64,000 bases of DNA from an uncultured euryarchaeote (lineage in GTDB: Archaea > Thermoplasmatota > Poseidoniia > Poseidoniales > Poseidoniaceae). The notes under the pieces are model-generated. The model had not been told where the DNA came from and made no database searches. It saw only the letters and a program-made list of their open reading frames with translations. Where the stretch lies: the NCBI GenBank assembly GCA_937894115.1, contig CALBFP010000296.1, forward strand, positions 5,275 through 69,274. Reading direction: 5' to 3'. Positions 47,626 to 63,659 of this stretch are shown here, one piece after another. Position numbers and translations under genes: made by a program. Positions within the stretch are counted from its first letter, which is position 1, and each line of letters begins with the position of its first letter.

Positions 47626-47649
47626 AAACTCGGAACCACTCGTAGGTTC

Positions 47650-49732: not shown

Positions 49733-49799
49733 CCAACAGTCAACCAATGCAGAATGCAATTATGAGTTGATGTGCTGCCGTGGATGGATTGAAAATTTA

Positions 49800-49872
49800 C
49801 GCCGATTGTGGGGCTCGAACCCACGACCTTGGGATTAACAGTCCCACGCTCCACCAGCTAAGCTAAATCGGC
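49800..49872 (-). tRNA. tRNA-Asn (anticodon GTT)
   Basis: The reverse complement is GCCGATT TA GCTT AGCTGGTG GAGC G TGGGA CTGTTAA TCCCA AGGTC GTGGG TTCGAGC CCCAC AATCGGC plus discriminator G. It folds as a full cloverleaf with a 7-bp acceptor stem. No CCA is encoded. Confidence 0.93.
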
Positions 49873-49915
49873 GAGTTTGGCCAGTAACATCTCCTTTATG
49901 ACGGCTTCCATGAAT

Positions 49916-51187
49916 TCAAGTCATCGAACAATCTGAAATTGTTACCCTTTCAAGAATCCTTGAACCTACATTGACTTGATAGTCTGAAATTGTAATCGAA
50001 TTCATCAAACGTTTCAACGAAGCATCATTGAGGCCACGAGGTGCGTCCAAGGTGAAAATGGGGTCACCTTCTTCGACTTTCATGCCAATGTGGTTGTGTA
50101 TTTCAATTCCAATTCCATGGTCGATATCTTCACTCTGGGTCGAGCGACCGGCTCCTATCTCACACAAAACTTGACCAAACACAAAAGCATCCAAGTCAGC
50201 GATATAGCCCGCTTTTCCTGCTTTTATTGTGTAGGCTTCAGGCGCTCGTTGCAACACGCTCCAAGGATTGTCGATCAGCTGTTGCACAACCTCCACATCA
50301 ACGCCTTGACGCACAAGCATCGAGTTGAACTCTTGCAGAGCAGAACCGTCGTTGATGACTTCAGAGATGTCGTACCCTAATGATTCGGCCTGTGCAAAGA
50401 CCAACTCCATCGTGTCGTTTGGACCCATACCCTTGAGACATGCAATGGTTTCAACAATTTCATGACTGTTTCCAATCATGTTCCCAATCGGGTGGTCCAT
50501 CTGCGTAAGCAATGCCTCAACTTTCATTCCAAGGGCAGTACCAACACGGACCATAGAGTGCGCAAGATTTCGAGCGTCCTCTGAGTGTTGCATGAAAGCC
50601 GCTCGACCGTACTTGACATCGAGGACCAGTGCTTGGATTCCTTCAGCCGCTTTTTTGGAGAGAATTGATGCTGTAATCAATCCTATGCATGGCACGGTTG
50701 CAGTCACGTCACGTATTGCATAGAGTATGGAATCTGTCGGTGCAATTTCATCGGTTTGTCGAGAAATGAAACATGGATTGTGTTCCATTTCTTGGATGCT
50801 TAATCCTGTGTTGAAACCAGGGATTGCCTCAAGTTTATCGATGGTTCCTCCCGTATGCGCCAGTCCTCTTCCCGCAAGCATAGGAACCACAGCACCACAC
50901 GCTCTTAGTGCTGGTGCAAGAACAAGGCTCATTTTGTCACCAACACCACCAGTTGAATGCTTGTCGACAGCGCCGGTCTGAGCAGGGAGTCGGTCTCCTT
51001 GTTCCAGCATTGCCTTGGTGAGGTGTATGGTTTCATCAGCATCCAATCCGTTGATCTGACATGCCATCAAAAACGCACCAATCTGCTCGTTTGGTATGAC
51101 ATGAAGATGTTTGATGAACCATTCAATTTCGGACGGTTCGAGTGCCTTACCATCCCTTTTTTTTGCCAATATCTTGGGGATGTGCAT
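49916..51187 (-). CDS. deoA: thymidine / pyrimidine-nucleoside phosphorylase
   Basis: The N-terminus is ILAKKRDGKALEPSEIEWFI and the phosphate-binding motif is DKHSTGGVGDK. At 423 aa it lacks the N-terminal extension of archaeal AMP phosphorylases. Confidence 0.85.
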   Translation of the reverse strand: MHIPKILAKKRDGKALEPSEIEWFIKHLHVIPNEQIGAFLMACQINGLDADETIHLTKAMLEQGDRLPAQTGAVDKHSTGGVGDKMSLVLAPALRACGAVVPMLAGRGLAHTGGTIDKLEAIPGFNTGLSIQEMEHNPCFISRQTDEIAPTDSILYAIRDVTATVPCIGLITASILSKKAAEGIQALVLDVKYGRAAFMQHSEDARNLAHSMVRVGTALGMKVEALLTQMDHPIGNMIGNSHEIVETIACLKGMGPNDTMELVFAQAESLGYDISEVINDGSALQEFNSMLVRQGVDVEVVQQLIDNPWSVLQRAPEAYTIKAGKAGYIADLDAFVFGQVLCEIGAGRSTQSEDIDHGIGIEIHNHIGMKVEEGDPIFTLDAPRGLNDASLKRLMNSITISDYQVNVGSRILERVTISDCSMT

Positions 51188-51192
51188 TCAAA

Positions 51193-52182
51193 TCAACTCT
51201 CATCGGATGAAGCCAATCCGATTTCAACGAGACGTTGGTGCAGGAATTCCCCTGCGGTGATGGAAGGGTAATCAGCAACGCCACTTGTACGTGCTACGTA
51301 TTCAGGACGTGGTGTCAAATCGATTTCGTTGCGAGGATGCACGAACATTGGCATCGAAAATCTTCGCTGTGTTGGATCACCTGGATTGACCACGCGATGT
51401 TTTGTTGAACGGAACAATCCATTTGTTAGATTTTGAATCATGTCACCAGAATCGACAATGATTTGTTCGTGGTTCCCCTCAACATCAATCCATGTTCCAT
51501 CGTTGTCCATGACCTGCAGTCCAGCAGCGGTGGCTGTCATGAGGAGCGTGATGAAATTGATGTCCTCATGTGCCGCTGAACGGACCGCACCTTCAGGTGT
51601 TGAAGCATCAAGAGGAGGATAGTGAATGATGCGCATAATCGTGTTGCCTTTGTCGGCCATTGATGGCAACCAATTCGCATCTTTTCCAAGGTACGTACTG
51701 CAAGCAGCGAGCAATTGGTTGGAAATGATTTCCATTTGATTGTACAACGAATCTACGTTCTCTTCAAACTTCGGAATGTGTTCGTTTGGCCATATGTTCA
51801 TCGGGTATTTGTTGTCCGTTTCGCTTCCTTGTTGTCCCCGTCCAGTTTGCCAAAATTCCTTGAGATCGGGTGCAGGGTTGTCTTTTGCATGCTCCACTCC
51901 GAACGACGTGTAACCTCGCTGATGTGAAATCTCTGGCTTTGAATACAAATTTTTCACGGAATCTTCAAGCATAAAGAAGGACTCAGCTTCATGATATGTG
52001 CCCTCAATCAAGGACAAGTCAATGCCGTGATTTGTGAGCGCAAAAAATCCAATGTCTGCAAGTGAATCTCCAACGGTTTTGATGAACTTCTGTACCCGTT
52101 GTTCATCCTCGGACAGATAGTCATCAAGGTCGGCTATTGGTAACGGCCGTGTCAACGAATCACCTGTCGCGAAGCTTTGCAA
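51193..52182 (-). CDS. 2-oxoglutarate/Fe(II)-dependent oxygenase (isopenicillin-N-synthase family)
   Basis: The facial triad and 2OG-binding residues are visible: IHYPP...AAHEDINFITLL (HxD), STKHRV (distal His) and RRFSMPMF (RxS). Confidence 0.8.
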   Translation of the reverse strand: MQSFATGDSLTRPLPIADLDDYLSEDEQRVQKFIKTVGDSLADIGFFALTNHGIDLSLIEGTYHEAESFFMLEDSVKNLYSKPEISHQRGYTSFGVEHAKDNPAPDLKEFWQTGRGQQGSETDNKYPMNIWPNEHIPKFEENVDSLYNQMEIISNQLLAACSTYLGKDANWLPSMADKGNTIMRIIHYPPLDASTPEGAVRSAAHEDINFITLLMTATAAGLQVMDNDGTWIDVEGNHEQIIVDSGDMIQNLTNGLFRSTKHRVVNPGDPTQRRFSMPMFVHPRNEIDLTPRPEYVARTSGVADYPSITAGEFLHQRLVEIGLASSDES

Positions 52183-52897
52183 TTAAACGAAGCATTTCGA
52201 AATACAGCCAAATAACGGTGACCATAACTCCGAAGGCGCCCCACCATTCCTGCTGCTTTGGAGCTCCCATTCGGACACCTGCGTCAATCATACCAAAATT
52301 CGAGATAAGCATCATCGCTGCAATGGTGATGATGAACAGACTTATTCCAATTCCAATCGGTCCAGAGGAGTGAAGGAACGGTACGGACCACGGTGTGAGG
52401 AACACCAAAAAGAGGTTGATGATGTAGACAAGGAAGATGGATCCTGCAAGTGTGAAAACAATCTTGTTGAAGGTCGGCGTTGGTCGAAGGATTCCAACCG
52501 AGTAAATGGTGAGCATCGTTGCAACGACAGCAAAAGTTGCGAGTCCAGCTTGTATGGCAATACCGGGATACATCAGCTCAAAAACAAGCGTTAAGGGTCC
52601 TATGAACAGCCCTTCCAGCGTTGCATAGACCATCACAAAACCGGCTGGTTCGACTGGACGAGAAAACCATAGGTAGACACCCATTCCCATGGTACCAAAC
52701 ATCCCAAGCAGCATCATTGGAAACAACAGACCGGGCATGATGAATCCAAGAGCTACGGAGCCAACTGCACTGACGGTTGCAAGTCCGAAAAGGATGCCTA
52801 TTTTTTGCAAGGTTCCTTCAAAGCTCATTCGGTCGTATCCTTGGATTGTATTCCAAAACTTCGGTTGAAAAACCGGGTTCGTTGAACTGTATGCCAT
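52160..52897 (-). CDS. Bax-inhibitor-1-like (BaxI_1/YccA-related) membrane protein
   Basis: ATG at 52897 gives MAYSSTNPVF..., followed by seven hydrophobic helices. The longer track ORF (to 53239) would overlap the upstream gene by about 300 nt. Confidence 0.7.
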   Translation of the reverse strand: MAYSSTNPVFQPKFWNTIQGYDRMSFEGTLQKIGILFGLATVSAVGSVALGFIMPGLLFPMMLLGMFGTMGMGVYLWFSRPVEPAGFVMVYATLEGLFIGPLTLVFELMYPGIAIQAGLATFAVVATMLTIYSVGILRPTPTFNKIVFTLAGSIFLVYIINLFLVFLTPWSVPFLHSSGPIGIGISLFIITIAAMMLISNFGMIDAGVRMGAPKQQEWWGAFGVMVTVIWLYFEMLRLIAKLRDR

Positions 52898-52937
52898 GAG
52901 TGAACCTAAACGCCGTCCTTTGTGAAGGTTGCGCGTC

Positions 52938-55900
52938 TCAGCCTTGCTCAGCGACCTGTTGTTGATAGTATTCTTCCAACTGGTCAAGCGTCCATCCGAG
53001 GTCAAGGTACTGTTGCACCATTTGCTCATCCCAGCCGGGGAACCTGTCAAGTTCTGAAGCGATTGATGTTGATTCGTCCGTTTCGTTTCGTCCATCCAAA
53101 ACAGGCTGCTCCCACTGCTCGTCAACATGAACAACATCATCGATGTGTTGATCTGTGACCCAATCCTTGGCCGCCTCGCTCTCTTTACGTGATTGAACAA
53201 TTCCGTAAACGGCACCAACCAATAGAAGCAAGCCACCAATCATCAGCAAAAGCATGAACGTTTCGCCAAATCCTTCTTCGGCTTCTCCACTTGCTTTTCC
53301 TGCTTTTTCGTTTCGTTGCTCTGAGGAACATCCCGAAACGTCGGTTGGGGTGTTTGGCGCAGTGTCAGGACAATCATCGTCGGAGTTGAGAACGCCGTCT
53401 TCATCGCTATCGATGCTCGAGTTTTCGGATTGGTTGTCGGATGGGTCAATTGGTTCAATTCCCCCGAGGTCGCATCCGAGTGCGGTCGCCTCATCAATAC
53501 CGTCACCATCAGCATCCGCAAGGTTGATCGCATCTGAGGGCGAAACGTCTTCAATTGCAGAATCGAGGGCGGTCGATTGTGCCCATGTTACCTCAACCGC
53601 ATCGAGGATGCAGTCACCGTCGGTGTCCGAATTCAGAGGATTACCACCGAGCATGTATTCGTCCATGTTCGATAAACCATCGTTATCGTTGTCTACATCA
53701 CTTTCCAAAACGCCATTGCGCATTGATACGGTTCGGTTAAGGCCAAAATTGACTTCGAATATATCGGGCATACCGTCGTTGTCCGTATCCGTCACGTTGT
53801 CCAAGCGATTCCAGTCGGCATACCACGATTCAATAAAGGGTGCTGCCACCTCAGAAGATGTGATGATAAGGCCCATCTCACGATTGCGGACCATCGCAGA
53901 ATCGCCCCAATTGATGCTTGATATGAGAACGGATTCACCATCAACAATTGCACCTTTGTTGTGCAGTTTCATAACGTCATCATCCTCGCTCATGATGATC
54001 GCAGATACGTCCCATCCGTTGCTGATGTTCCAGTCGTTGTTGATTCGATCGACAACATCTTGAATGTCTTCATCAAGGTAGGCTCCGTTGATTATCAGAC
54101 GGATTGAAACCCCATCAGAAGCTGCTTGTTGCAGTGCAGAGATCAAAGGATTCTCGCCCCATCCCCATTTCCAATCAAGATCCAAGTATTGCAAGGACAG
54201 TAAAATCTCATCATCCGCTGATTGAATCATTTCTGTAAGGCCTTCGACACAATCATCAGGACAGGTCAACAAACGTCCGCTAAACGATCCACTCAGCGCC
54301 TCTGCAGTGTTTTGATCAATTTCCGTAGCTTCTGGAATGACATAGGAATTTGTTGGAGGTGTTGAAGACACGGGTTGGACGAACATCGAACTTTCATCAA
54401 ACGCCATGTTTGCTCGAACGTTGGCCGCAAGTTGGACGCTGTTGACGATGATTCCCCAATCTCGGTTGCCACGATCACCATCGTATGGCAGAGAGGAAGG
54501 CTTCCAATTTCCTGAACCAATCCATACTGAGGAAGCGTCACGGACTGCGACCTTTGAGTGAAGATAGAGGTACGGATCGTCAGCTGTGCCACCGAACCAG
54601 TGGACACCAATACCTGCCTGGTTGAGTGAATGTGCGTAAGCCTGTTGTGCTTGCCTATCGTTTTGGTTCCACCAATCTTCGGGTTCGTTGAGAACAACCG
54701 ATACGTCAACACCTCTGTTTTGAGCATCGATGAGTGCTTGTGAAAGTTCGCTCGATTGCAGGATGTAGATGTGTACGTGAAGTGAATTTTGGGCATCATC
54801 AATCCAATTGATGAGATCCATCAATCCATGTTCTGGAGCGATGAGCGGTGTGACCGCTGTCGCATCGTTGAATGTAGAATCGGCACAGAAATCACTGGCA
54901 CCCAAGCGGCCCCATCGTTGGTGCCAGTCTGTAGATTGGTTGGTGTCCGTCATCAGACCACAACCATCCCCACGGTACAGAATGAGGTTGTCGATACCAC
55001 TCACTGGCTCTGAAAGCGAAACACCCTCCCATCCTTCGCTGGCAACCGGCCCATTCTTGTAGACAATCGTGTCAGCAACTCCACCGGTTGGATGGATTAA
55101 TTGCAATGCCATACCGCTGTCAAGAAGGTAAATCGGGCTCTCCATGGCCGCATTCATGTCAAGCAGGATGCCGTCTTCGAACAATTCCAATGCATCAACA
55201 TCGTTCGATAATTTAACCGATGAGGAGGCATTGATTTGAAGATTGGTTATTTCGGATTCAAACGAAGATCCGTCTGAGGCAATCCGTCGAACCGACCATC
55301 CGTTTAGAAGAGCAGATTCCGTTCCAATGTTGGTCAATTCAAAGAACTCCATTTCTGTTGAAATGGAAGAGACTCCATCCCACATTATTGAACTGAATTT
55401 GATGTCGTCAATCGAGGCCATCATGGCGGCGTCGGGTTCAGGCAAACCAGGGGTAGGCCACATGAACTCAACCCATCCGTCATCGCTCGCATTGTAGCCG
55501 TACGTAGCGCAATTCGTACTCAAGAATCCTGTTGGAGGAGCGATGGTAGCGACGACTTCTCCATCTGGATTGAGAAGGTCCATACTGCTTACTTCATCCA
55601 AACCAACACCAAAGATGTCGTGTTGCAATTCGACCACAACACGGTCTTGTGGAGCGAGCGTGGCATCAACAATCGAAGATGGCCACAACACGCTGACGTC
55701 GATAAACTGTCGGCCCATGAGTGGATTTGAATTGTAATCTGCACGAAGCATCCACCGACTCAAATTGACGTTTGTCTCCCCATTGTTGTACAGTTCAATC
55801 CAATCGGCAGCAGGCTGGAATGCAGGGTCGTTGCAAGATGTGGCCATTTCCGTGACGAGGATGGTCTCGCTTCCCGAATATGCCGGCCAAACCGGGTTTT

Positions 55901-57833
55901 CTTGACCTGGTGTTGCCCATGCACTGTTGAGCCAGTCGCTCATGCCCCATGTCGTGCTTGAGGAGGGGGCGTTCGTACCCGAGGGGCCAGCACCTGCGTG
56001 CGTTTCCGTGTTGTTGATCAGAGAAACACCTTCGAGCGTGTGCGTCCATTGAGCCGAATGAACTGCAACTCCATTTCCGTCATAGAGGAATATTTGGTCC
56101 GGCGTTGTGTGTTTGAGGTAGAATTGTGAGGTCCCATTGAGCGCAACAAGGACGGTTTCACCTGCTTGCAAAACCGTGTCGGATTTGGCAGGCATGTTGT
56201 ATTGATGAAGAATCAGGGTACGCCCCGCAGCAGAGAAGCGCCATCCAGCAACATCGACCTCCTCAGTACCCATGTTTTGAATTTCAATCCATTCGCCGTT
56301 TGGGTACGGCAACGAATCGGTGCCGATTGCGTCGGCCAAGACCTCGGTTATTTTGACGTCACCAGTGGTTGGCGTTGGGGTTGGGTTTGGTTGGCCCGGC
56401 GATGGTGCAATCGAAGGAGTCCATGGATCGTGGTAATTTTGAGCCTGAATTAATGAAACGTTTGTTCCGTAATTGGTGGTGTAATGCGCCATATCCACGA
56501 TGGATTCTGCAGCATTGCGAAGAATCAGGTGGTTGTAATTGTCCATGAGGCGCGTGTCTCCAGTAAACTCGACAAGTCTCCGTTCTCCAGCATCGATGGT
56601 TGTGCTGCCTTGTGAACTGTTGAACACAATTGATCCAGGGTCCAGATAAGTGACATTACCCATGCCGTTAACGATCGACCAACCGTTAAGGTCGATTGCC
56701 ACGGCTCCAGAATTGTAAAGTTCAATCCATTCACCCTCCGGTGCTGAGCTTCCATCGGAGGCGCTCACAGGAAAAATTTCACCGAATTGAACATCCGAAC
56801 CTGCAGTAATATCGTTCAATTTTGGAGCGTTTGTTGCGTTTCGGGTTGGGTATGTAGAATACTGCCAAAGACCTTCACCGCTTGGGGCCTCAAGTGAAAA
56901 ACCGGGTTGATTTCGGGTCCACGCCACTTCATCTCCAATGCTTCCGTTGGACAGATACAGATGCAGCGTTTCCTGACCGTTGTTCAGGATACTGCTGCTG
57001 GTTGTTGAGTTCACAGAGACGACTCTCGTTTCTTGAGGATAGATCAACAGCGTTGAAGCATCGGTTGTTGCACCGATGAGATGATTTTCATCCATCGCAA
57101 TTGTGTTGCCTGCAACGTCCTGCAACCAATATCCGCTGAGGTCAATCGTTGACGTACCGTTGTTGTACAGTTCCACCCATTCCCCACCCGGCCAGGACTC
57201 GTTATCGTAACTTGGCCATGGGTCTGCCATCACCTCATTGATGATGACATCGCTTTCGGTGTACGATGGTCCCGTCGTGCCCCCTCCACCTCCACCGCTG
57301 TTCAACGAACCGGGAGTAGGGCTCGAGGTGGGAATCCAATCGTTGTACGCACTCGCTGGATCTTCTTCCAAACTCACACCGCTGGAACTTGAATTCCATG
57401 TGGCCTCATCAACCCAGCTGTTGGATGCGTCGTAGAGTGTCATGAAATCGTTGGCATTGGCAACGTAGAAGTTGGTGGTCCCGTTTCTCGCAACGATCAT
57501 GTAATCGCCGGGAGCCAGCGTGTAAGTCGATGCATCGCTGGCATTGTAGCCGACGATTGAAGATGCATCAAGATAAAGCGTCTTGGAGGCTTTGTTTGAG
57601 AAGTACCAGTTGCGAACATCCACGGATGATGTTCCCGTATTGTACAATTCCAACCATTCTCCGTTTGGCCAAGTAGCGTTGTCGTAACCGTTTGGATTTG
57701 GCATTACTTCATTGATGCAAACCGAACCACTGCAAGGCTGACTTCGAGCCCCTGCTGCCTCTGTCGGACCCACAAGGTGCGTCACAGGAACCAAAAGCAT
57801 GAGCGTGAGGAGGAATATTGATTCAATTCGCAT
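52938..57833 (-). CDS. 1631-aa surface protein: signal peptide, six lamin-tail domains (LTD), double-HKD phospholipase-D-superfamily domain, TSP3-like repeats, TM anchor, acidic cytoplasmic tail
   Basis: There are six repeats of the INEV....P....GEW[IV]ELYN.G pattern (aa 39, 196, 349, 493, 658, 811). HKD motifs are HSKVAVRDASSVWIGSGN (aa 1092) and HNKGAIVDGESVLISSIN (aa 1291). DxDxDG repeats span aa 1346-1490. The TM helix is at aa 1525-1546. Confidence 0.8.
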   Translation of the reverse strand: MRIESIFLLTLMLLVPVTHLVGPTEAAGARSQPCSGSVCINEVMPNPNGYDNATWPNGEWLELYNTGTSSVDVRNWYFSNKASKTLYLDASSIVGYNASDASTYTLAPGDYMIVARNGTTNFYVANANDFMTLYDASNSWVDEATWNSSSSGVSLEEDPASAYNDWIPTSSPTPGSLNSGGGGGGTTGPSYTESDVIINEVMADPWPSYDNESWPGGEWVELYNNGTSTIDLSGYWLQDVAGNTIAMDENHLIGATTDASTLLIYPQETRVVSVNSTTSSSILNNGQETLHLYLSNGSIGDEVAWTRNQPGFSLEAPSGEGLWQYSTYPTRNATNAPKLNDITAGSDVQFGEIFPVSASDGSSAPEGEWIELYNSGAVAIDLNGWSIVNGMGNVTYLDPGSIVFNSSQGSTTIDAGERRLVEFTGDTRLMDNYNHLILRNAAESIVDMAHYTTNYGTNVSLIQAQNYHDPWTPSIAPSPGQPNPTPTPTTGDVKITEVLADAIGTDSLPYPNGEWIEIQNMGTEEVDVAGWRFSAAGRTLILHQYNMPAKSDTVLQAGETVLVALNGTSQFYLKHTTPDQIFLYDGNGVAVHSAQWTHTLEGVSLINNTETHAGAGPSGTNAPSSSTTWGMSDWLNSAWATPGQENPVWPAYSGSETILVTEMATSCNDPAFQPAADWIELYNNGETNVNLSRWMLRADYNSNPLMGRQFIDVSVLWPSSIVDATLAPQDRVVVELQHDIFGVGLDEVSSMDLLNPDGEVVATIAPPTGFLSTNCATYGYNASDDGWVEFMWPTPGLPEPDAAMMASIDDIKFSSIMWDGVSSISTEMEFFELTNIGTESALLNGWSVRRIASDGSSFESEITNLQINASSSVKLSNDVDALELFEDGILLDMNAAMESPIYLLDSGMALQLIHPTGGVADTIVYKNGPVASEGWEGVSLSEPVSGIDNLILYRGDGCGLMTDTNQSTDWHQRWGRLGASDFCADSTFNDATAVTPLIAPEHGLMDLINWIDDAQNSLHVHIYILQSSELSQALIDAQNRGVDVSVVLNEPEDWWNQNDRQAQQAYAHSLNQAGIGVHWFGGTADDPYLYLHSKVAVRDASSVWIGSGNWKPSSLPYDGDRGNRDWGIIVNSVQLAANVRANMAFDESSMFVQPVSSTPPTNSYVIPEATEIDQNTAEALSGSFSGRLLTCPDDCVEGLTEMIQSADDEILLSLQYLDLDWKWGWGENPLISALQQAASDGVSIRLIINGAYLDEDIQDVVDRINNDWNISNGWDVSAIIMSEDDDVMKLHNKGAIVDGESVLISSINWGDSAMVRNREMGLIITSSEVAAPFIESWYADWNRLDNVTDTDNDGMPDIFEVNFGLNRTVSMRNGVLESDVDNDNDGLSNMDEYMLGGNPLNSDTDGDCILDAVEVTWAQSTALDSAIEDVSPSDAINLADADGDGIDEATALGCDLGGIEPIDPSDNQSENSSIDSDEDGVLNSDDDCPDTAPNTPTDVSGCSSEQRNEKAGKASGEAEEGFGETFMLLLMIGGLLLLVGAVYGIVQSRKESEAAKDWVTDQHIDDVVHVDEQWEQPVLDGRNETDESTSIASELDRFPGWDEQMVQQYLDLGWTLDQLEEYYQQQVAEQG

Positions 57834-57899
57834 AAAGCATCGTCGCTCTAAGCCAACCCCTTCCCCCTCATATCTTTTGGTGCGAAGTATCCTCTTGCT

Positions 57900-59402
57900 T
57901 CAGATGAATCCAAAACTATCCGCCATCTGAGCAAAGGTGTAAATCATAATCGGAACGAGGATAATGCCCATTCCATGGCTGCGTCGTATGCCGATTCGAG
58001 GCGGCATCAATCCAAGAATGGTGCCGACGATCAGAACTCCGATTCCAACGAATCCAGTAGAGAGCCAAACCAACCCGGTGACGAATATGATGACGCCCAT
58101 AACCATTGATTGCAGTGGAATTGCAGCATGAAGTCGCAACATACCTTTGCCGACGATTTTCATAATTGGCATCGCCATTATGCCAGCAGCGAGGGTGACT
58201 GCAAGCAAACGGACAAAGTCGGCAGTGGGTTGACTTGAATTCCATGTTTCAATGGGATACATCATTTTCAACGCAAGCGTCGCACCCGAACGTGACCTTC
58301 CGATGATGTAAAGGAATCCAAGGACCATAACCGTAACAGCGGTGTTGACCGCTGAGAGGATAGCAATGACCTCCAAATCTTGTTTTGTCTGAGGTCCTTC
58401 GTATCCATCTTCTGCTTCTGCAACGGCAATCTCAAGAAGTTCTTCGTCGCTTAGTTCCGTTAATCGGCGCGTTTCCCAATCCATTCCGTAGCCTTCTTTG
58501 CCTTGCACTTTTGCCGCAACGTTTCGACCACCCATGACCAAAACCGTGGCCTGTGATGCGGTCATTCCGGGCAGGACACCCATGCTTGCACCAGCTACAG
58601 CCGACCAAAAACACGGGGCAATCAAGGGTTTAACTGGAGGCAGATCCCAGTTCTCTTTCTGTGGAGGCAGATGGCTGGTTGTAGCATATATGTCCAACAG
58701 GTTTGCAATCCCAAACAACCCTGCCAGACTCGGTAGCAAGAGGGATGGTGAAGGCATTCCAACAGGGCTGTCAACTGGCAACTCAAACACAGCCCAACCG
58801 TACAAGCCTGCCAGCAGGAAAAACACGGTCGCAGCAACGAATCCCGCAAAACGACTGTCGTTGCCAAGTCGCTTACCCGTTAGCTTTTGCACCCATTTGG
58901 GCCAATCAAGACGGGTTGTTTCAGTCGCCAACAACAACAAGGATATGACCAATAAAATCACAGGAAGCCAATCGCGCAAGCCGTTGTACCAATCCAACTC
59001 AGGGCCAAAGGCGATTCGAGCTACAACGATAAGCGGTAGCGATAAAAACAGACCCAATTGTGAACCTCGGGCAGACCAAGCAACGCCTCGGGCAGCGTTC
59101 CCTGCCAACAGCATACGATGCCCGGGCAACAAGGACAGGGCAGTATCACCGTCAGGAGCGCCGATTAACGCAGAGGGAATGTAATTGAGAAATGTGTGGA
59201 CCGTCCCGGTTGAAACGATAATTGCTGCAACTGCGGAGAGCGGGATTCCCAATTCAAGTAGTCCTGGTGAGAGTGCGAGCAAAATAAGTGCGACATTGTT
59301 GACGTGGAATCCTGGAATCAGGCCCGTTAGAGAACCCAGCATTACTCCAAAGAACAAGGCGCCGAGGAGCCACCAAAGCTCGTGGAAGTACGCTTCGATC
59401 AT
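57900..59402 (-). CDS. TctA-family (DUF112) large membrane permease
   Basis: 500 aa and multi-pass. TctA-like N-terminal blocks are GSLTGLIPGFHVNNVAL and ALIGAPDGDTALSLLPGHRML. No tctB or tctC is adjacent. Confidence 0.65.
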   Translation of the reverse strand: MIEAYFHELWWLLGALFFGVMLGSLTGLIPGFHVNNVALILLALSPGLLELGIPLSAVAAIIVSTGTVHTFLNYIPSALIGAPDGDTALSLLPGHRMLLAGNAARGVAWSARGSQLGLFLSLPLIVVARIAFGPELDWYNGLRDWLPVILLVISLLLLATETTRLDWPKWVQKLTGKRLGNDSRFAGFVAATVFFLLAGLYGWAVFELPVDSPVGMPSPSLLLPSLAGLFGIANLLDIYATTSHLPPQKENWDLPPVKPLIAPCFWSAVAGASMGVLPGMTASQATVLVMGGRNVAAKVQGKEGYGMDWETRRLTELSDEELLEIAVAEAEDGYEGPQTKQDLEVIAILSAVNTAVTVMVLGFLYIIGRSRSGATLALKMMYPIETWNSSQPTADFVRLLAVTLAAGIMAMPIMKIVGKGMLRLHAAIPLQSMVMGVIIFVTGLVWLSTGFVGIGVLIVGTILGLMPPRIGIRRSHGMGIILVPIMIYTFAQMADSFGFI

Positions 59403-59410
59403 GGTCTCAC

Positions 59411-61153
59411 CTACGATTGTTCGATGTATTCTTGACGATCACTGATGCCATCGCCATCGCTGTCCAGACTGTTGGAACTCGTTCCGAATGCGGATTCGAG
59501 TGCATCACTCAAATCATCATCGTCGTTGTCATCAACATCCGCATTGTTAAGGCTGTAAATCATGCTCAGAGTTTCCGCATCCTCGACTTGGAGAAGCCGC
59601 CCCTCCCAGGTCATAGCGGTTCCTAAATGAAGTTCATCAAGTCCGATGCAGTTATTGACGGCACTTAGGAGAATCTTTCTGTCGCTCCCTGGCTCACTCA
59701 GGAACCACGTTCCATTTTCTTCAACAGCGAGACCATTGATTCGAACAATTTTGTTTTTGTCGTACCCCCAGTCGATTGCTCCATCGCCCCAGAGCAGATT
59801 CATTGGATTCGCTTTCTCACCTTCAGTGAGTTCGTGGACCAACAATTCTGCTCGCATGTTTTCGTCATCCCACGCAACCGTAACATTGGCAACAATCGCT
59901 TGCCCTGCTTCGAGCCATGTTGAGCGTGGTCCAGGAATCGTGACTGCAATGCTTGTCCACCCCGGTGTGTACCCCGACGAATCGACAAGGTAAGCGGATT
60001 CATCCTCGACACTCGGTTCCAAGGCGTATTTCATGTATGCAGATACAATGTAGTGTTGATCGGGAGAATCAAGAACTGCGGTTGGATTTGCGTTGAGCAT
60101 GAGCAACAAATCGTCGATTGAGGAGGTTGCGGTCAAGGAAGGATTGGATTCATCACTCTTGTCCAGACACCAAGAGGAAATCGCAGTATTCCACACCAAC
60201 CGGCCACGCATTTGGATGGATTTTCCGTTGAGTGAGTCGACCGCACTCACGTCGTCATCGCTGGGGAGAACACACAGCGGTGAGCCAGATGAGCCAGAGA
60301 GTTCCCAACTGTCGTTCTCGACGGTTAAAACACCCGCGACATCCACGGTTCTGCCCGATGAGTACATCCACGTCGATTGTGAAGACCAATCGAGAAGCGG
60401 CATTTCAATGGGGTGATTTCGATCGATTTTGATGTCGGGGCCTTGAATACCGAGATTCCATCGAAGTTCGCGTTGTTGGTACGAAAGAACGCCTTGTACA
60501 GTAACCTTTGATCCCGCCTCGATCCATTCACCAGTTGCAGAGTGAATGGTCATACCGATTTGGTGCTCTGAGTTTCCATAGTTCGGATGATCGCCAAGTT
60601 TTGCATTGCCAAAAGCGATATCAGGTGCAATGGACTTGGAGATGAAACCCGTGAGTTCAATGACCTCGCCGTCATAGGATTGTGGATTCAAAGCAACGTC
60701 AGAAATTGACAATTGTGGCGCTTCGGGGACATCGCTGGACTTCCAATTCATCGCTCCAGCACCGAGAGCTTGTATCCACATGCGACCTTCGTAATTTATG
60801 ACATCTCCAATAATCGTAACGTTGGTCCCAATTGGAGGTAAATCGCCGGGTCGATACCAGCGTAGTTCGACAACACCCGTTCCGTCGTCAATAATTGCAT
60901 CGAGGCGATCGTCTCCAGAGTTGTACGGGTCTTCGACCCATGAAATGAGCATGCCTTCGACCTTGACAACCTCATTGATGTATTCTGTAAGGTCGTCGAC
61001 ATCGACTACGGAAGGCTCTCGAACCATTGCGTACCAATTGAGGGTAGCGACAAGAAACAGAGAAATGGCGAACATAACCCACAAGCGTGGTCCGTTCGTT
61101 TCTGGATCATCGGTTGATAAACGCGCAAGGAAGCCCTTCAAGCCATCCGCCAT
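59411..61153 (-). CDS. type-II membrane-anchored surface protein with about five OB-fold-like modules and a C-terminal TSP3-like acidic repeat
   Basis: ATG at 61153 (MADGLKGF...) is followed by one TM helix. A pattern recurs: V.V.G.l...(variable)...D..G...v......G..V.v.G.v. One example is VVKVEGMLISW...IIDDGTGVVELRW...IGTNVTIIGDVINYEGRMWIQA. The end reads DSDGDGISDRQEY. The OB assignment is by eye only. Confidence 0.5.
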   Translation of the reverse strand: MADGLKGFLARLSTDDPETNGPRLWVMFAISLFLVATLNWYAMVREPSVVDVDDLTEYINEVVKVEGMLISWVEDPYNSGDDRLDAIIDDGTGVVELRWYRPGDLPPIGTNVTIIGDVINYEGRMWIQALGAGAMNWKSSDVPEAPQLSISDVALNPQSYDGEVIELTGFISKSIAPDIAFGNAKLGDHPNYGNSEHQIGMTIHSATGEWIEAGSKVTVQGVLSYQQRELRWNLGIQGPDIKIDRNHPIEMPLLDWSSQSTWMYSSGRTVDVAGVLTVENDSWELSGSSGSPLCVLPSDDDVSAVDSLNGKSIQMRGRLVWNTAISSWCLDKSDESNPSLTATSSIDDLLLMLNANPTAVLDSPDQHYIVSAYMKYALEPSVEDESAYLVDSSGYTPGWTSIAVTIPGPRSTWLEAGQAIVANVTVAWDDENMRAELLVHELTEGEKANPMNLLWGDGAIDWGYDKNKIVRINGLAVEENGTWFLSEPGSDRKILLSAVNNCIGLDELHLGTAMTWEGRLLQVEDAETLSMIYSLNNADVDDNDDDDLSDALESAFGTSSNSLDSDGDGISDRQEYIEQS

Positions 61154-61244
61154 GTTCCTGCTCTTGGCTTGCAATGCATATCTCTTACCATAGGACAGTT
61201 TGGCGAGAGATGCTTTGAAATGGAAGGCAAGGACAGGATTTACC

Positions 61245-62552
61245 ATGCGAGACCGTGTTATTCGTGATGAAATCCATCGCGATGTTTTGGTACCAGCCCA
61301 TCACGCTCGAATCATCGACACCAATGAATTCCAACGACTGAGAAACATTCAGCAACTCTCGACCTGTGAATTTGTTTTCCCATCGGCGACACACACACGT
61401 TTTGCTCATTCTCTAGGAGCATACTATCTTGCAGGGGAACTCACATCCTCCATCCAAGAAGTTCAACCCGGTCTGCTTTCCGATTCCGATGCGGAACTTG
61501 TCCAAATCGGAGCGCTGCTCCATGACATTGGGCACCCACCTTATTCCCATTTGCTGGAAACACCCGAAGTTTTTGCGACCTTCCACTCTCACGAGCATTG
61601 GGGTCGCATTCTTCTTGAAAGCAACGAATCAGAAATTGGGAGAGTGCTTTCGGATGTATTGGGCGACGAAGGAAAGCAACGACTTTTTGCGCTTTTGGAC
61701 GGCCGTAATGAGTGCAATGGAGTTCCGATTCCACCGTTTATGAAAGAGATTATTGGCAGTCAACTCGATGTCGACCGTATGGATTACATGATTCGTGATC
61801 AAGCAAATACGGGCGCTCAAATTGGAGGTTTCGACAGTGCAAGAGTCATTCGTGCGCTTCGAGTGAACGATGAAGGTCGACTCTACGTCAAATCATGGGG
61901 ATTGCCGGCCATCGAAGCGTACCTCGTAACACGTTATCACATGTACAATCAAGTTTACTTTCACAAGGTCAACATGCTTACTCAATCCTATCTTGTGCGC
62001 ATGCTGAGGCGGGCTCGAGAACTTGCGGAGGAAGGAAAGCTCGAATTGGATGGAGAAATCAAGCAGATGCTTCTCAACAAAACACTGACGCCAGAGCAAT
62101 ACGCATCACTACACGATTCCCACATCAAAGTTGCCATGGGCCGTTTTGCACTACAGGACGACGAGATCTTGTCAGGTTACGCATCGCGTCTTCTAGCGCG
62201 TAGAGATTACCACAAGTCGCTGCGCATCCCATCGCTGACGACGGAAATGTTTGCAGCGGTCGAAGAAGATGTTGCATTGTTGTTGAAAGAAGAAGGATTC
62301 GATCCGTTCCACGATCTTATCACAGCAACCATTGGAAAACGCGGGTACATGCCGTACGATCAGGGCATTATTCTTGAAGACGGCAGAGATGCAGCAGAAC
62401 ATTCCCCGCTCATACGCTCGCTCACGCAATCCGAGGAGCATGTGCTTGTTTTTGTTCCAGAGCAAGTAAGGGATGCTTGCGAATCCATGGTGCGTGCAAA
62501 AACAAAACCGACTCAATCCTCATTGGCAATGTTTGATTCGGCAAACTCATGA
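61245..62552 (+). CDS. HD-domain dNTP triphosphohydrolase-like protein (SAMHD1/EF1143 family)
   Basis: Diagnostic motifs are FQRLRNIQQLS, THTRFAHSLGAYYLA, LLHDIGHPPYSH and DVDRMDYMIRD. The start is taken at ATG 61245. Confidence 0.82.
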   Translation: MRDRVIRDEIHRDVLVPAHHARIIDTNEFQRLRNIQQLSTCEFVFPSATHTRFAHSLGAYYLAGELTSSIQEVQPGLLSDSDAELVQIGALLHDIGHPPYSHLLETPEVFATFHSHEHWGRILLESNESEIGRVLSDVLGDEGKQRLFALLDGRNECNGVPIPPFMKEIIGSQLDVDRMDYMIRDQANTGAQIGGFDSARVIRALRVNDEGRLYVKSWGLPAIEAYLVTRYHMYNQVYFHKVNMLTQSYLVRMLRRARELAEEGKLELDGEIKQMLLNKTLTPEQYASLHDSHIKVAMGRFALQDDEILSGYASRLLARRDYHKSLRIPSLTTEMFAAVEEDVALLLKEEGFDPFHDLITATIGKRGYMPYDQGIILEDGRDAAEHSPLIRSLTQSEEHVLVFVPEQVRDACESMVRAKTKPTQSSLAMFDSANS

Positions 62553-62576: not shown

Positions 62577-62650
62577 GGGCCTGTAGCTTAGTTGGTTAGA
62601 GCACCCGGCTCATAACCGGGCGGTCAAGGGTTCAAATCCCTTCAGGCCCA
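62577..62650 (+). tRNA. tRNA with CAT anticodon (elongator Met or Ile2; not initiator-like)
   Basis: The sequence is GGGCCTG TA GCTT AGTTGGTTA GAGC A CCCGG CTCATAA CCGGG CGGTC AAGGG TTCAAAT CCCTT CAGGCCC A. It has a G1:C72 pair and lacks the GGG/CCC anticodon stem of initiators. No CCA is encoded. Confidence 0.9.
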
Positions 62651-62729
62651 CTATTTTCGGACTCCTTAGGGACACTTTGCGACACAATGGTTATGAGGGT
62701 CGATAGGGTGGGTGAAGTTAGTGAGCACG

Positions 62730-63659
62730 ATGTCAACCCGAAAGAGTACCTTAACCGTTCTTTTGATTTACCTTGCATCTCTGTTGCTTGTAGCAGTACC
62801 AGCTCAAGCCCAGATACCTACTGCAGCGGTCTCGATTACATGTCAACCCGCTGAGATTAAAGTCGATGTCAAACCAGGGTCAACGCTTGTTGGTTTTACC
62901 ACCTGCACAGCATCCAACCCAACAGCATACATTGAGAAGATTGCACTGTCCGTAACATCCGATGGACTCGCAGCCGCAGCACCGGGTGACATCTATGTCG
63001 GGGGCAATTCCGATGAAGACTTCCAGGTTGTTGTCCGCGCCACACCGTTCATGACCATGCAAGCCCGCAGTCTTGTCGTCCAAGGAAGCGTCCAAGAAAT
63101 CAACGGTTTGCCTCCTGCGAACCAAGCAACATCGGGTGCGTCGATGATCGTCTCAATCACCCAGTTCGCACTCCTTCAAGTTGAAGCCGTTGAACCCTTT
63201 GTTCAACTGATGCCAAAGACCGATAAGGACTTCGAATTCAAGGTATACAATCTCGGAAACCAATTCGACTTCATGAACATCGGAATCTCAGAAAGCTCCC
63301 GAGAGTCCCTTGAGGACGCAGGATTCAACATCAACATCCCAATCAGCAAGGTCAATGTAGAGCCGATGGTCGCACCAGCGAAAATCCGAATACAAGTTCG
63401 AACTCCAAAGAACCAAGGATGGACCGATGCATACCACACACTCGATTTCTACGCTGAATCAGACTTCTCCTGCAAGAACGGTGGCTGTGACCGTGAATCG
63501 CAAATGATTACCATCTACGTTCGTGGAATTTACCTGCCCGGCTTCGAAATCATCCCTGCACTGTCAATGGTCGCTCTTGCAGCCGCTGTTGCAGGTCGTC
63601 GTTTCATCAACGCTGACGATGAAGAAGACGAGTGGCGAGAAGCCGCACCAGGTCTGTAA
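62730..63659 (+). CDS. secreted beta-sandwich-like surface protein with C-terminal PGF-type membrane anchor
   Basis: The signal peptide is MSTRKSTLTVLLIYLASLLLVAVPAQA. The body is rich in beta-strand patterns. The C-terminus is LPGFEIIPALSMVALAAAVAGRRF plus an acidic tail. Confidence 0.6.
   Translation: MSTRKSTLTVLLIYLASLLLVAVPAQAQIPTAAVSITCQPAEIKVDVKPGSTLVGFTTCTASNPTAYIEKIALSVTSDGLAAAAPGDIYVGGNSDEDFQVVVRATPFMTMQARSLVVQGSVQEINGLPPANQATSGASMIVSITQFALLQVEAVEPFVQLMPKTDKDFEFKVYNLGNQFDFMNIGISESSRESLEDAGFNINIPISKVNVEPMVAPAKIRIQVRTPKNQGWTDAYHTLDFYAESDFSCKNGGCDRESQMITIYVRGIYLPGFEIIPALSMVALAAAVAGRRFINADDEEDEWREAAPGL

What the first reader, a model, noticed from the sequence alone, without database searches (positions are those of the whole stretch)
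49916..61153. Same-strand six-gene cluster linking surface OB-like and LTD/PLD proteins to thymidine phosphorylase: candidate extracellular DNA/phosphodiester harvesting module
Seen in sequence: six minus-strand genes run head-to-tail with very short spacers, followed 43 nt later by tRNA-Asn.
- multi-OB-like surface protein to TctA-family permease: 8-nt gap
- TctA-family permease to six-LTD/double-HKD surface protein: 66 nt
- LTD/HKD protein to BI-1-like membrane protein: 40 nt
- BI-1-like protein to 2OG/Fe(II) oxygenase: 23-nt overlap
- 2OG/Fe(II) oxygenase to thymidine phosphorylase: 5 nt

Established knowledge: lamin-tail domains in prokaryotes are typically found on secreted nucleases and phosphoesterases. 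The HKD/PLD superfamily includes both phospholipases and nucleases (Nuc, BfiI). OB folds bind oligonucleotides or oligosaccharides. Thymidine phosphorylase is the entry step of deoxynucleoside catabolism.

Inference: the cluster could capture and cleave an extracellular phosphodiester polymer (DNA is the most coherent guess) and feed pyrimidine deoxynucleosides into salvage. I know of no described system with this composition. The transport step and the PLD substrate are both unknown.
Basis: partly seen in the sequence, partly recalled or inferred. Interest (0 to 1): 0.7.

Follow-up and report, generated by a model that had tools for sequence, protein, structure and literature searches.

The report
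Marine archaeal candidate DNA-foraging gene cluster
In abundant marine plankton archaea (Poseidoniales), four genes stay together across distant lineages: a membrane-tethered multi-OB surface protein, a TctA-type permease, a giant surface phosphodiesterase of the nuclease-like HKD type, and thymidine phosphorylase. This makes a dissolved-DNA harvesting role plausible but unproven.

Summary
Six minus-strand genes and tRNA-Asn lie at the stated coordinates, with the stated spacers and domains. The tight packing means nothing here: the window is 96% coding and its median same-strand gap is 9 nt.

Synteny across 80 Poseidoniaceae genomes is also uninformative, because unrelated flanking housekeeping genes are equally collinear.

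The informative evidence comes from deeper lineages, where the OB protein is only 27-33% identical. There the flanks differ and the inserted genes differ, yet the order OB protein, TctA, LTD/HKD, deoA persists. In several lineages deoA directly overlaps the LTD/HKD gene (ATGA). BaxI, the 2OG oxygenase, SMR and a thiolase are lineage-specific inserts. BaxI carries its own conserved promoter-like box.

A structure model shows about five OB-like barrels in the first protein. By sequence, the HKD halves are closest to the nucleases Nuc, NucT and Zucchini.

Against the DNA reading:
- No nucleotidase or known nucleoside transporter is present.
- The OB modules are acidic.
- Some inserted genes hint at lipids.
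- No biochemistry exists.

This is a new variant of known DNA-foraging loci (Izemoplasmatales loci, Haloferax Hvo_1477).

The parts
59411..61153 (-). P1: a 580-aa membrane-tethered surface protein. It has an N-terminal TM helix (about aa 17-44), about five OB-like beta-barrel modules (aa ~62-129, 164-237, 269-331, 368-444, 469-540) and a C-terminal Asp-rich TSP3-type Ca-binding repeat.
   Evidence: - AlphaFold model: pLDDT 77.5.
- Foldseek top hits are tandem-OB DNA binders: p204 HIN E 1.5e-11, then RPA70, POT1, Teb1, LEF-3.
- Weak Pfam hits in orthologues: tRNA_anti-codon OB in 7/16, DUF4131 in 3/16, TSP3_bac in 14/16.
- Every module is acidic, pI 4.0-4.7.
- The family has only about 9 full-length 50%-identity clusters, all marine 'Euryarchaeota'/Poseidoniaceae.
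57900..59402 (-). TctA-family permease, 500 aa, with no TctB or TctC partner.
   Evidence: - Pfam PF01970: 153 bits.
- Identity across Poseidoniaceae is 84-99%; in deep lineages it is 52-69%.
- It lies 3-12 nt after P1 in 84 loci.
- No TctB or TctC family was found among the scanned window proteins.
52938..57833 (-). A 1631-aa type-I surface protein: signal peptide, six lamin-tail domains, a double-HKD PLD-superfamily catalytic domain, Asp-rich TSP3-like repeats, a C-terminal TM anchor and a ~75-aa cytoplasmic tail.
   Evidence: Pfam LTD x6 and PLDc_2 x2. The sequence was read directly. The HKD motifs are given.
53799..54881 (-). Double-HKD catalytic domain (aa 985-1345) of the LTD/HKD protein.
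   Evidence: - Model: pLDDT 85.8, pTM 0.89.
- Foldseek: PLD3/PLD4 5' exonucleases first (E 5e-21, TMq 0.67-0.72), then PLD1/2, F13 and Streptomyces PLD.
- Profile against PDB sequences: Nuc 4.7e-13, NucT 2.5e-10, Zucchini 2.9e-10, PLD 7e0m 4e-8.
- NCBIfam best hit: DISARM DrmC, 83 bits, below its cutoff.
52160..52897 (-). BaxI_1 (BI-1/YccA-like) membrane protein. It is a lineage-specific insert, not part of the conserved core.
   Evidence: Pfam 195 bits. It is absent from cluster types B-F.
52915..52926 (-). Promoter-like box TTCACAAAGGAC, 18-29 nt upstream of the BaxI start codon.
   Evidence: - TT[CG]AAA boxes lie 26-36 nt upstream of 9 of 48 window genes, against about 0.6 expected.
- An equivalent box lies at -42..-22 of BaxI in 62/62 distinct orthologous spacers, against 1% at random positions and 0-2 hits for the other five genes.
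- Positive control: HD has the box at -30 in 29/78 loci.
- The element is predicted, not measured.
51193..52182 (-). 2OG/Fe(II) oxygenase (DIOX_N plus 2OG-FeII_Oxy). It is tightly coupled to deoA and present in cluster types A-C only.
   Evidence: - Pfam domains.
- PDB sequence hits: 3oox 1.8e-52 and 3on7 3.9e-41, both of unknown function; then thymine dioxygenase T7H at 1.1e-29 as the best characterised hit.
- The 2OG-to-deoA distance is -14 to +10 nt in nearly all lineages.
49916..51187 (-). Bacterial-type thymidine / pyrimidine-nucleoside phosphorylase (deoA), the 3' end of the conserved core.
   Evidence: NF004490 at 413 bits (cutoff 269), with three Pfam domains. In all six cluster types that contain an LTD/HKD gene (about 80 evaluable loci), deoA is the last conserved gene.
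49799..49873 (-). tRNA-Asn(GTT), 42 nt downstream of deoA. It is a neighbour only in the window's family.
   Evidence: ARAGORN and Rfam. It is absent after deoA in L089-L092.
61176..61187 (-). Upstream element TAAGAGATATGC, 23-34 nt before the P1 start. It is a candidate promoter box.
   Evidence: An equivalent element lies at -31..-29 in 50/80 distinct P1 upstream sequences, against 3% at random positions. Pattern search.
57868..57879 (-). Related element CAAAAGATATGA in the 66-nt TctA-to-LTD/HKD spacer.
   Evidence: It is one of only 3 matches to AAARAGATATGM (1 mismatch allowed) in 64 kb; another match is the P1 element. It is conserved in related loci L001, L008, L015 and L031. The Poseidonia clade instead has a 15-18 nt spacer with no room for a promoter.

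Best explanation
Anatomy. The locus holds a conserved four-gene core: P1 (a TM-tethered protein with five OB-like modules), a TctA-type permease, a surface-anchored six-LTD double-HKD phosphodiesterase, and thymidine phosphorylase. Lineage-specific genes have been inserted into this core. In this window the inserts are BaxI and a 2OG oxygenase.

Most likely working model (inferred, not shown):
1. The LTD/HKD enzyme, anchored outside the membrane, cleaves an extracellular phosphodiester polymer, most probably dissolved DNA.
2. P1 sits beside it and helps to hold the substrate or hand products to the permease.
3. TctA imports a breakdown product.
4. Cytoplasmic thymidine phosphorylase splits pyrimidine deoxynucleosides into base and deoxyribose-1-phosphate.

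In this window the cluster is probably read as at least two units, P1-TctA(-LTD/HKD) and BaxI-2OG-deoA.

Shown: gene identities, predicted folds and conserved linkage. Inferred: the substrate, the transport step and the flow to deoA.
For: Linkage:
- In about 62 Poseidoniaceae loci long enough to judge, all six genes are in the same order.
- In deep lineages the proteins are much more divergent (P1 27-33%, LTD/HKD 31-37%, deoA 39-45% identical), yet the order P1-TctA-...-LTD/HKD-...-deoA is kept.
- Meanwhile the neighbours change. Upstream neighbours: HD, SSF, a 451/475-aa protein, or the choice-of-anchor-T protein. Downstream neighbours: tRNA-Asn/guaA, GcvP2, Acyl_transf_3, a 237-aa protein, or an 1168-aa protein.
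- deoA overlaps the LTD/HKD stop as ATGA in L103, L104, L108, L112 and L150. It overlaps by 14 nt in L092. It follows within 2-10 nt in L090, L095, L097 and L102.
- P1 to TctA is 3-12 nt in 84 loci. TctA to LTD/HKD is 15-18 nt in the Poseidonia clade.

Function:
- The HKD halves are nearest to the nucleases Nuc, NucT and Zucchini by sequence profile. The top fold hits are the PLD3/4 exonucleases.
- LTDs accompany surface nucleases: ExeM (weak hit), Hvo_1477 (PMC3929857) and the Izemoplasmatales protein (PMC8289736).
- P1 has an OB fold and weak tRNA_anti-codon and DUF4131 hits.
- In the one lineage without LTD/HKD-deoA, another phosphodiesterase (PF01663, 71 bits) occupies the slot after P1-TctA-thiolase.
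Against: - The cluster contains no 5'/3'-nucleotidase and no known nucleoside transporter. No TctA-family member is known to carry nucleosides or nucleotides (established knowledge of the family).
- All P1 modules are strongly acidic, pI 4.0-4.7.
- The fold search does not separate nucleases from lipases.
- Unrelated genes (BaxI, SMR, thiolase, Acyl_transf_3) sit inside or overlap the run in some lineages. Adjacency in these genomes therefore does not guarantee shared function.
- A conserved promoter-like box precedes BaxI, and a conserved element precedes 2OG in type C. In this window deoA need not be co-transcribed with the surface genes.
- Much of the upstream region (STT3-purD-CarS...HD) is also collinear in several deep lineages.
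Confidence: 0.5

Rival explanations
1. The surface module harvests a non-nucleic-acid phosphodiester, such as phospholipids of algal or vesicle membranes or glycerophosphodiesters. The HKD enzyme then acts as a true phospholipase D. P1 binds glycan or lipid-associated material. TctA imports an anionic product. The presence of deoA is historical.
For: - A thiolase is inserted between TctA and LTD/HKD in types F and G.
- A 917-aa protein with a CD36-family hit (29.5 bits) occupies the same position in type E.
- Acyl_transf_3 overlaps deoA in types D and E.
- Fold scores for PLD1/2 and Streptomyces PLD are close to those for PLD3/4.
- The P1 modules are acidic and rich in conserved Trp, with weak CBM_5_12 hits in 6/16 orthologues.
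- Sources annotate the orthologues as cardiolipin synthase-like.
Against: - deoA is the only invariant cytoplasmic partner, and it is translationally coupled to the HKD gene in several lineages.
- The sequence profile ranks the nucleases Nuc, NucT and Zucchini far above cardiolipin synthase and PLD1/2.
- The LTD is characteristically linked to nucleases (PMC3929857, PMC8289736).
- The lipid-related neighbours are each confined to some lineages.
Confidence: 0.2
2. The six genes share no function. The run is a product of very compact, slowly rearranging Poseidoniales genomes. P1-TctA, LTD/HKD, BaxI, 2OG and deoA each do separate jobs.
For: - The window is 96% coding, with a median same-strand gap of 9 nt everywhere and runs of up to 14 genes.
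- Unrelated flanking genes are as syntenic as the cluster in 80 genomes and partly in deep lineages.
- Heterogeneous genes are tolerated inside the run.
- Promoter-like boxes are predicted inside the run.
Against: - The ends of the conserved block coincide with P1 and deoA, while both flanks change at least 4-5 times.
- ATGA overlaps join LTD/HKD and deoA.
- The combination of OB, LTD and phosphodiesterase recurs as domains of single bacterial nuclease proteins (PMC8289736).
Confidence: 0.2
3. The module is a DNA-uptake (competence-like) device. A membrane OB protein resembling the ComEC N-terminal OB, a polytopic membrane protein and a surface nuclease together would pass DNA or single strands into the cell.
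For: - Weak DUF4131 (ComEC OB) hits occur in 3/16 P1 orthologues.
- Foldseek hits are to ssDNA-binding OB arrays.
- A nuclease-like HKD domain sits at the surface.
Against: - TctA is a secondary-transporter family with no similarity to the ComEC competence channel.
- No pilus or ATPase genes are nearby.
- The link to a catabolic or salvage enzyme (deoA) fits feeding better than transformation.
Confidence: 0.05

Closest known systems
'DNA-degradation loci' of Ca. Izemoplasmatales (Wasmund et al. 2021, PMC8289736)
   Same: [quoted passage not shown]
   Different: - Those loci are bacterial.
- Their nucleases are not HKD-type.
- Their transporters are ABC systems, and they include phosphohydrolases and phosphate uptake.
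- Here the OB part is a separate TM-tethered protein, the permease is TctA-type, no nucleotidase is present, and nothing has been shown experimentally.
Haloferax volcanii Hvo_1477 (Chimileski et al. 2014, PMC3929857)
   Same: It is an archaeal cell-surface-anchored nuclease carrying a lamin-tail domain, and it is needed for growth on extracellular DNA.
   Different: Hvo_1477 is a small lipoprotein with one staphylococcal-nuclease domain and one LTD, with no described partner genes. Here the catalytic domain is double-HKD, there are six LTDs and a C-terminal TM anchor, and there are conserved permease, OB-protein and deoA partners.
HKD (PLD-superfamily) nucleases Nuc, NucT, Zucchini and PLD3/PLD4
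   Same: They share the HxK(x)4D(x)6G/SSxN motifs. They give the best sequence-profile hits (Nuc, NucT, Zucchini) and the best fold hits (PLD3/4). PLD3/4 are also membrane-anchored with the catalytic domain on the non-cytoplasmic side.
   Different: Nuc, NucT and Zucchini are single-HKD homodimers of about 150-200 aa. Identity is low, and scores are below the NCBIfam cutoffs. Nuclease activity has not been tested here.
Tripartite tricarboxylate transporters (TctABC)
   Same: The large membrane subunit TctA is present and very conserved.
   Different: There is no TctB and no TctC (Bug-type binding protein). A TM-tethered multi-OB protein invariably precedes TctA and might replace the binding protein; this is inference only.
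Fungal thymidine salvage pathway (thymine-7-hydroxylase, PMC4787775)
   Same: A DIOX_N/2OG oxygenase whose best characterised structural relative is T7H lies 5 nt upstream of thymidine phosphorylase, the enzyme that makes thymine.
   Different: The T7H substrate-contact residues Tyr217, Asn87, Glu122 and Asn294 are Ile, Gln, Gln and His here. The closest structures, 3oox and 3on7, have unknown function. Bacterial homologues are not next to deoA. No iso-orotate decarboxylase was seen.

Membership tests
PLD/HKD superfamily | Two HxK(x)4D(x)6G/S-S/G-x-N motifs in one chain and the PLD fold | tested here: met
   The motifs are HSKVAVRD...GSGN at aa 1092 and HNKGAIVD...SSIN at aa 1291. PLDc_2 x2 scores 131 bits. 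Foldseek gives probability 1.0 to PLD3/4, PLD1/2 and F13.
Nuc/NucT/Zucchini-type HKD nucleases | Closer in sequence to the nuclease clade than to lipid-acting PLDs or cardiolipin synthases | tested here: inconclusive
   The profile ranks Nuc 4.7e-13, NucT 2.5e-10 and Zucchini 2.9e-10 above PLD1/2/3/4 (E>0.01). All NCBIfam nuclease hits are below their cutoffs, and the fold ranking is nearly flat.
Nuc/NucT/Zucchini-type HKD nucleases | Hydrolysis of DNA or RNA phosphodiester bonds | not testable with these tools
   This needs an enzyme assay.
Lamin-tail-domain surface hydrolases | LTD repeats on a secreted or anchored protein with a phosphoesterase domain | tested here: met
   Six LTD stretches score 245 bits. 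The signal peptide and C-terminal TM helix were read from the sequence.
OB-fold proteins | Five-stranded beta-barrel modules | tested here: met
   This is met for a predicted structure only. The model has pLDDT 77.5 with five beta modules. There are 120 Foldseek hits at E<=0.001, led by tandem-OB proteins. Weak PF01336 hits occur in 7/16 orthologues.
OB-fold proteins | Binding of nucleic acid | not testable with these tools
   Indirect evidence only. The fold neighbours bind DNA, but every module has pI 4.0-4.7.
Tripartite tricarboxylate transporter (TctABC) | TctA large membrane subunit | tested here: met
   PF01970 scores 153 bits.
Tripartite tricarboxylate transporter (TctABC) | TctB small subunit and TctC periplasmic binding protein encoded alongside | tested here: not met
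   No such family was found in the cluster or in 45 scanned window proteins, nor among called neighbours in related loci.
Thymidine / pyrimidine-nucleoside phosphorylase | Three-domain architecture and a score above the curated cutoff | tested here: met
   Glycos_trans_3N, Glycos_transf_3 and PYNP_C are present. NF004490 scores 412.6 against a cutoff of 269. It is not AMP phosphorylase (187 bits against a cutoff of 535).
Thymine-7-hydroxylase (T7H) | Fe and 2OG ligands plus the substrate-contact residues Phe292, Tyr217, Arg190, Asn87 and Glu122 | tested here: inconclusive
   The His-x-Asp...His triad, Arg190, Tyr194, Arg286, Ser288 and Phe292 equivalents are present, but they are family-wide. 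Tyr217 is Ile, Asn87 is Gln, Glu122 is Gln and Asn294 is His (PMC4787775).
DNA-foraging locus (Izemoplasmatales type) | Extracellular nuclease, plus nucleotidase or phosphohydrolase, plus nucleoside transporter, plus nucleoside phosphorylase | tested here: not met
   The phosphorylase is present and the nuclease is a candidate only. No nucleotidase and no known nucleoside transporter were found in the cluster.
Single operon of six genes | One promoter, with no internal promoters, and the same gene content in relatives | tested here: not met
   A promoter-like box lies upstream of BaxI in 62/62 spacers. BaxI and 2OG are absent in types D-F. SMR and thiolase inserts occur. The transcripts themselves were not measured.

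The most novel reading that the evidence does not exclude
Poseidoniales (Marine Group II archaea) carry a previously undescribed cell-surface DNA-foraging operon. In this reading:
- A TM-tethered five-OB protein captures dissolved DNA.
- A six-LTD double-HKD nuclease digests it.
- A TctA-type permease working without TctB/TctC, with the OB protein acting as its receptor, imports the products.
- Thymidine phosphorylase processes the pyrimidine deoxynucleosides. In some lineages it is joined by a thymine-dioxygenase-like 2OG enzyme that would convert thymine toward uracil.
Probability: 0.3. Interest if true: 0.8.

Novelty: new variant of a known kind. Interest (0 to 1): 0.62.

Why it matters
Poseidoniales are among the most abundant archaea of the sunlit ocean and have never been cultured. 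Their diet is inferred from genomes, mostly as proteins, lipids and polysaccharides. Dissolved DNA is a large pool of organic phosphorus, nitrogen and carbon.

If this conserved, order-wide cluster is a surface DNA-harvesting module, it would have four consequences:
- It would add a major consumer to the marine dissolved-DNA cycle.
- It would give the first HKD-type, LTD-decorated surface nuclease system in archaea.
- It would suggest a new substrate class and a new kind of receptor subunit for the poorly understood archaeal TctA transporters.
- It would provide defined proteins (the HKD domain, the OB ectodomain and TctA) that can be tested in vitro without culturing the organism.

Tried and rejected
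- Short spacers as evidence of an operon: rejected, because the whole window has the same spacing.
- Synteny in 80 GTDB Poseidoniaceae genomes as evidence of function: uninformative, because HD, choice-of-anchor-T, guaA, purD, CarS and STT3 are equally collinear.
- Homologue searches with LTD/HKD and TctA: saturated by close orthologues, with no distant relatives listed.
- Alignment A3 of all distant P1 proteins: too divergent for the metagenome scan. The narrower alignment A4 worked.
- 2OG oxygenase as a thymine dioxygenase: residue mapping was not diagnostic. Its bacterial homologues in Salinivibrio and Tistrella are not near deoA.
- Fold search of the HKD domain to decide nuclease versus lipase: not discriminating. 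The same holds for annotated plasmid homologues, all named 'PLD-like'.
- Oligo-T terminator runs after the genes: none found.
- Rfam: only the two tRNAs.
- Literature linking MGII/Poseidoniales with lamin-tail domains, PLD or thymidine phosphorylase: nothing relevant; one search's single hit, an archaeal phosphorothioation defence paper, was judged from its title only and not opened.
- Taxonomy of the deep lineages: could not be resolved beyond 'Euryarchaeota archaeon'.

Full report
**Observation.** The six minus-strand ORFs, their spacers (8, 66 and 40 nt, a 23-nt overlap, 5 nt) and tRNA-Asn(GTT) 42 nt after the last gene are as described. Pfam and NCBIfam confirm the following:
- TctA, 153 bits.
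- Six lamin-tail domains and two PLDc_2 halves, with intact HKD motifs at aa 1092 and 1291.
- BaxI_1.
- DIOX_N plus 2OG-FeII_Oxy.
- A bacterial-type thymidine phosphorylase: NF004490, 413 bits against a cutoff of 269.

Names attached to orthologues place the window in Candidatus Poseidoniales (Marine Group II), family Poseidoniaceae.

**The first gene.** P1 (59411-61153) has no family hit above threshold.
- An AlphaFold model built on 16 orthologues (pLDDT 77.5) shows an N-terminal TM helix followed by about five beta-barrel modules.
- Foldseek returns 120 PDB hits at E<=0.001, led by tandem-OB DNA binders: p204 HIN with dsDNA at 1.5e-11, then RPA70, POT1, Teb1, LEF-3 and CST.
- Several orthologues give weak hits to the nucleic-acid-binding OB family PF01336 and to the ComEC OB domain DUF4131. 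Most carry a C-terminal TSP3 Ca-binding repeat.
- The 'OB-like' call therefore holds for a predicted structure. Ligand binding is not shown, and every module is acidic, pI 4.0-4.7.

**The HKD domain.** The model of aa 985-1345 is confident (pLDDT 85.8, pTM 0.89).
- By fold, the PLD3/PLD4 5' exonucleases come first (E 5e-21), but PLD1/2, vaccinia F13 and Streptomyces PLD follow closely.
- By sequence profile the order is clearer: Nuc 4.7e-13, NucT 2.5e-10, Zucchini 2.9e-10, and everything lipid-acting much weaker.
- This leans toward a nuclease-type enzyme without proving it.

**What does not count as evidence.** The window is 96% coding. The median same-strand gap is 9 nt outside the cluster and 8 nt inside it, and same-strand runs of 14, 7 and 5 genes occur elsewhere. 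In 80 species-level Poseidoniaceae genomes and several metagenome contigs, every locus long enough keeps the six genes in order. So do the unrelated flanks: choice-of-anchor-T, tRNA-Met, HD, guaA and, further out, purD, CarS and STT3. Within this family, synteny cannot separate function from slow rearrangement.

**What does count.** A profile search of 1.8 billion representatives found only about nine full-length P1 clusters, all from marine 'Euryarchaeota'. I fetched their contexts, plus 61 more loci from a metagenome scan. Identities to the window proteins fall to 27-33% for P1, 52-69% for TctA, 31-37% for LTD/HKD and 39-45% for deoA. Seven arrangements appear:
- **A** (this window): P1-TctA-LTD/HKD-BaxI-(SMR)-2OG-deoA.
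- **B and C**: P1-TctA-LTD/HKD-2OG-deoA.
- **D**: P1-TctA-LTD/HKD-deoA-acyltransferase.
- **E**: P1-TctA-917-aa protein-(LTD x2)-HKD-deoA-acyltransferase.
- **F**: P1-TctA-thiolase-LTD/HKD-deoA.
- **G**: P1-TctA-thiolase-264-aa protein-NPP-type phosphodiesterase, with no LTD/HKD or deoA within 7 kb.

The upstream neighbour changes at least four times and the downstream neighbour at least five times. The order P1, TctA, LTD/HKD, deoA never changes where these genes are present.

Where no 2OG gene intervenes, deoA is joined directly to the HKD gene:
- an ATGA overlap in five loci;
- a 14-nt overlap in one locus;
- gaps of 2-10 nt in four loci.

The conserved block therefore starts at P1 and ends at deoA. 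BaxI, SMR, 2OG, the thiolase and the 917-aa protein are lineage-specific inserts. In type G, a different phosphodiesterase family (PF01663, 71 bits) sits in the vacated position. This fits a P1-TctA module that works with an extracellular phosphodiesterase.

**Transcription units (predicted).**
- A TT[CG]AAA box lies 26-36 nt upstream of 9 of 48 window genes, against about 0.6 expected. It falls preferentially at the heads of strand runs.
- As a control, the box sits at -30 of the divergent HD gene in 29/78 loci.
- An equivalent box (TTCACAAAGGAC here, at 52915-52926) precedes BaxI in 62/62 distinct orthologous spacers. The comparison values are 1% at random positions and 0-2 hits for the other five genes.
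- P1 has a different conserved element, GATATGC-type, at -30 in 50/80 sequences. A related element lies in the 66-nt TctA-to-LTD/HKD spacer of this window's relatives.
- In the Poseidonia clade that spacer is only 15-18 nt.
- The likely units in this window are therefore P1-TctA(-LTD/HKD) and BaxI-2OG-deoA. Types D-F appear to read straight through to deoA. None of this was measured.

**Function.** A surface HKD enzyme decorated with LTDs cleaves extracellular DNA. A tethered OB protein and a TctA permease act next to it. Thymidine phosphorylase deals with the pyrimidine deoxynucleosides.

Gaps in the model:
- There is no nucleotidase and no known nucleoside transporter.
- The OB modules are acidic.
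- No TctA-family member is known to carry nucleosides.

A lipid or other phosphodiester substrate remains a serious rival. The thiolase, the CD36-like protein and the acyltransferase neighbours point that way, and both the PLD and NPP families contain lipid-acting as well as nucleotide-acting members.

**The 2OG oxygenase.** Its nearest structures, 3oox and 3on7, have unknown function. The best characterised relative is Neurospora thymine dioxygenase at 1.1e-29. This is intriguing beside an enzyme that produces thymine. However, the T7H substrate-contact residues are not kept (PMC4787775), and the bacterial homologues examined are not next to deoA. It remains a lead only.

**Comparison with known systems.** The closest described systems are the 'DNA-degradation loci' of Izemoplasmatales and Haloferax Hvo_1477. 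The Izemoplasmatales loci combine nucleases, a protein with LTD, nucleic-acid-binding and nuclease domains, transporters and phosphorylases (PMC8289736). Hvo_1477 is a surface SNase-LTD lipoprotein needed for growth on DNA (PMC3929857). The present cluster shares their logic but not their parts:
- an HKD catalytic domain;
- six LTDs;
- a separate multi-OB protein;
- a TctA permease without TctB or TctC;
- an archaeal planktonic host.

No paper in the library links Poseidoniales with these genes.

**Verdict.** The real unit is a conserved four-gene core with variable inserts, not a six-gene operon. The DNA-harvest mechanism is the best-supported reading at about 0.5 and is fully testable. I class it as a new variant of a known kind, with interest 0.62.

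Noticed in passing
window 13247-28101: An alpha-glucan utilisation cluster. It contains a binding-protein/permease fusion, a second permease, an ABC ATPase, an amylase with a glycogen-binding module, a glucan phosphorylase, a 4-alpha-glucanotransferase and a 1489-aa surface GH57 protein with a Glucodextran_C module. In the same genome it shows the same pattern of surface hydrolase, transporter and cytoplasmic phosphorylase.
   Followed up: partly
window-wide, e.g. 2291-2296, 23603-23608, 61214-61219: A TT[CG]AAA(GGAC) box lies 26-36 nt upstream of the start codons of 9 of 48 genes, against about 0.6 expected. It is mostly at the heads of strand runs and is a candidate Poseidoniales promoter element.
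   Followed up: partly
L142 15959-17203 (also L154): In the one lineage where P1-TctA-thiolase is not followed by LTD/HKD-deoA, the slot holds a 264-aa unknown protein and a 414-aa type I phosphodiesterase / nucleotide pyrophosphatase (PF01663, 71 bits). This may be a non-orthologous replacement.
   Followed up: partly
L103 13328-16081 (type E loci L097-L112, L150): A 917-aa protein with a CD36-family hit (PF01130, 29.5 bits, just above its cutoff) is inserted between TctA and a shortened (LTD x2)-HKD gene. A CD36-like protein is unusual in an archaeon.
   Followed up: no
L126 10500-10564; likewise L118-L139: The TctA-to-LTD/HKD spacer of type C loci holds a conserved sequence, CACTAAGG...CCTCACGCGTGAGCGCAGGGCtatGCCCTGCGGTG, with a perfect hairpin just before the start codon. 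It could be a regulatory leader or a terminator.
   Followed up: no
window 61245-62552 (+), with tRNA-Met at 62577-62651: An HD plus HD_assoc_2 protein, weakly dGTP-triphosphohydrolase-like (40 bits, below its cutoff), is transcribed divergently from P1 across a 91-nt spacer. It is the upstream neighbour in types A, F and G but not in B-E.
   Followed up: partly
L003 19150-19482; L086 5763-6095: A 110-aa SMR (Multi_Drug_Res) gene sits between BaxI and 2OG in one clade and several genes upstream in another. It is a small gene that has moved around this locus.
   Followed up: no
window 52938-53165 (C-terminal tail of the LTD/HKD protein): The ~75-aa cytoplasmic tail after the TM anchor ends in a conserved ...EEYYQQQV... 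motif. The motif is retained across clades (visible in the 3' coding ends), which suggests a cytoplasmic interaction partner.
   Followed up: no
window 33727-34986: A 419-aa protein has an LDL-receptor class A domain (31 bits), an uncommon domain in archaea.
   Followed up: no
window 62730-63659: A choice-of-anchor T family surface protein (NF041740, 296 bits). Its homologue directly abuts P1 in type E loci.
   Followed up: no
window 47216-47649: This is the largest apparent intergenic gap in the window (434 nt). It is filled by an unannotated 143-aa minus-strand ORF (47194-47625) with a hydrophobic C-terminal half. There is no Rfam match.
   Followed up: partly
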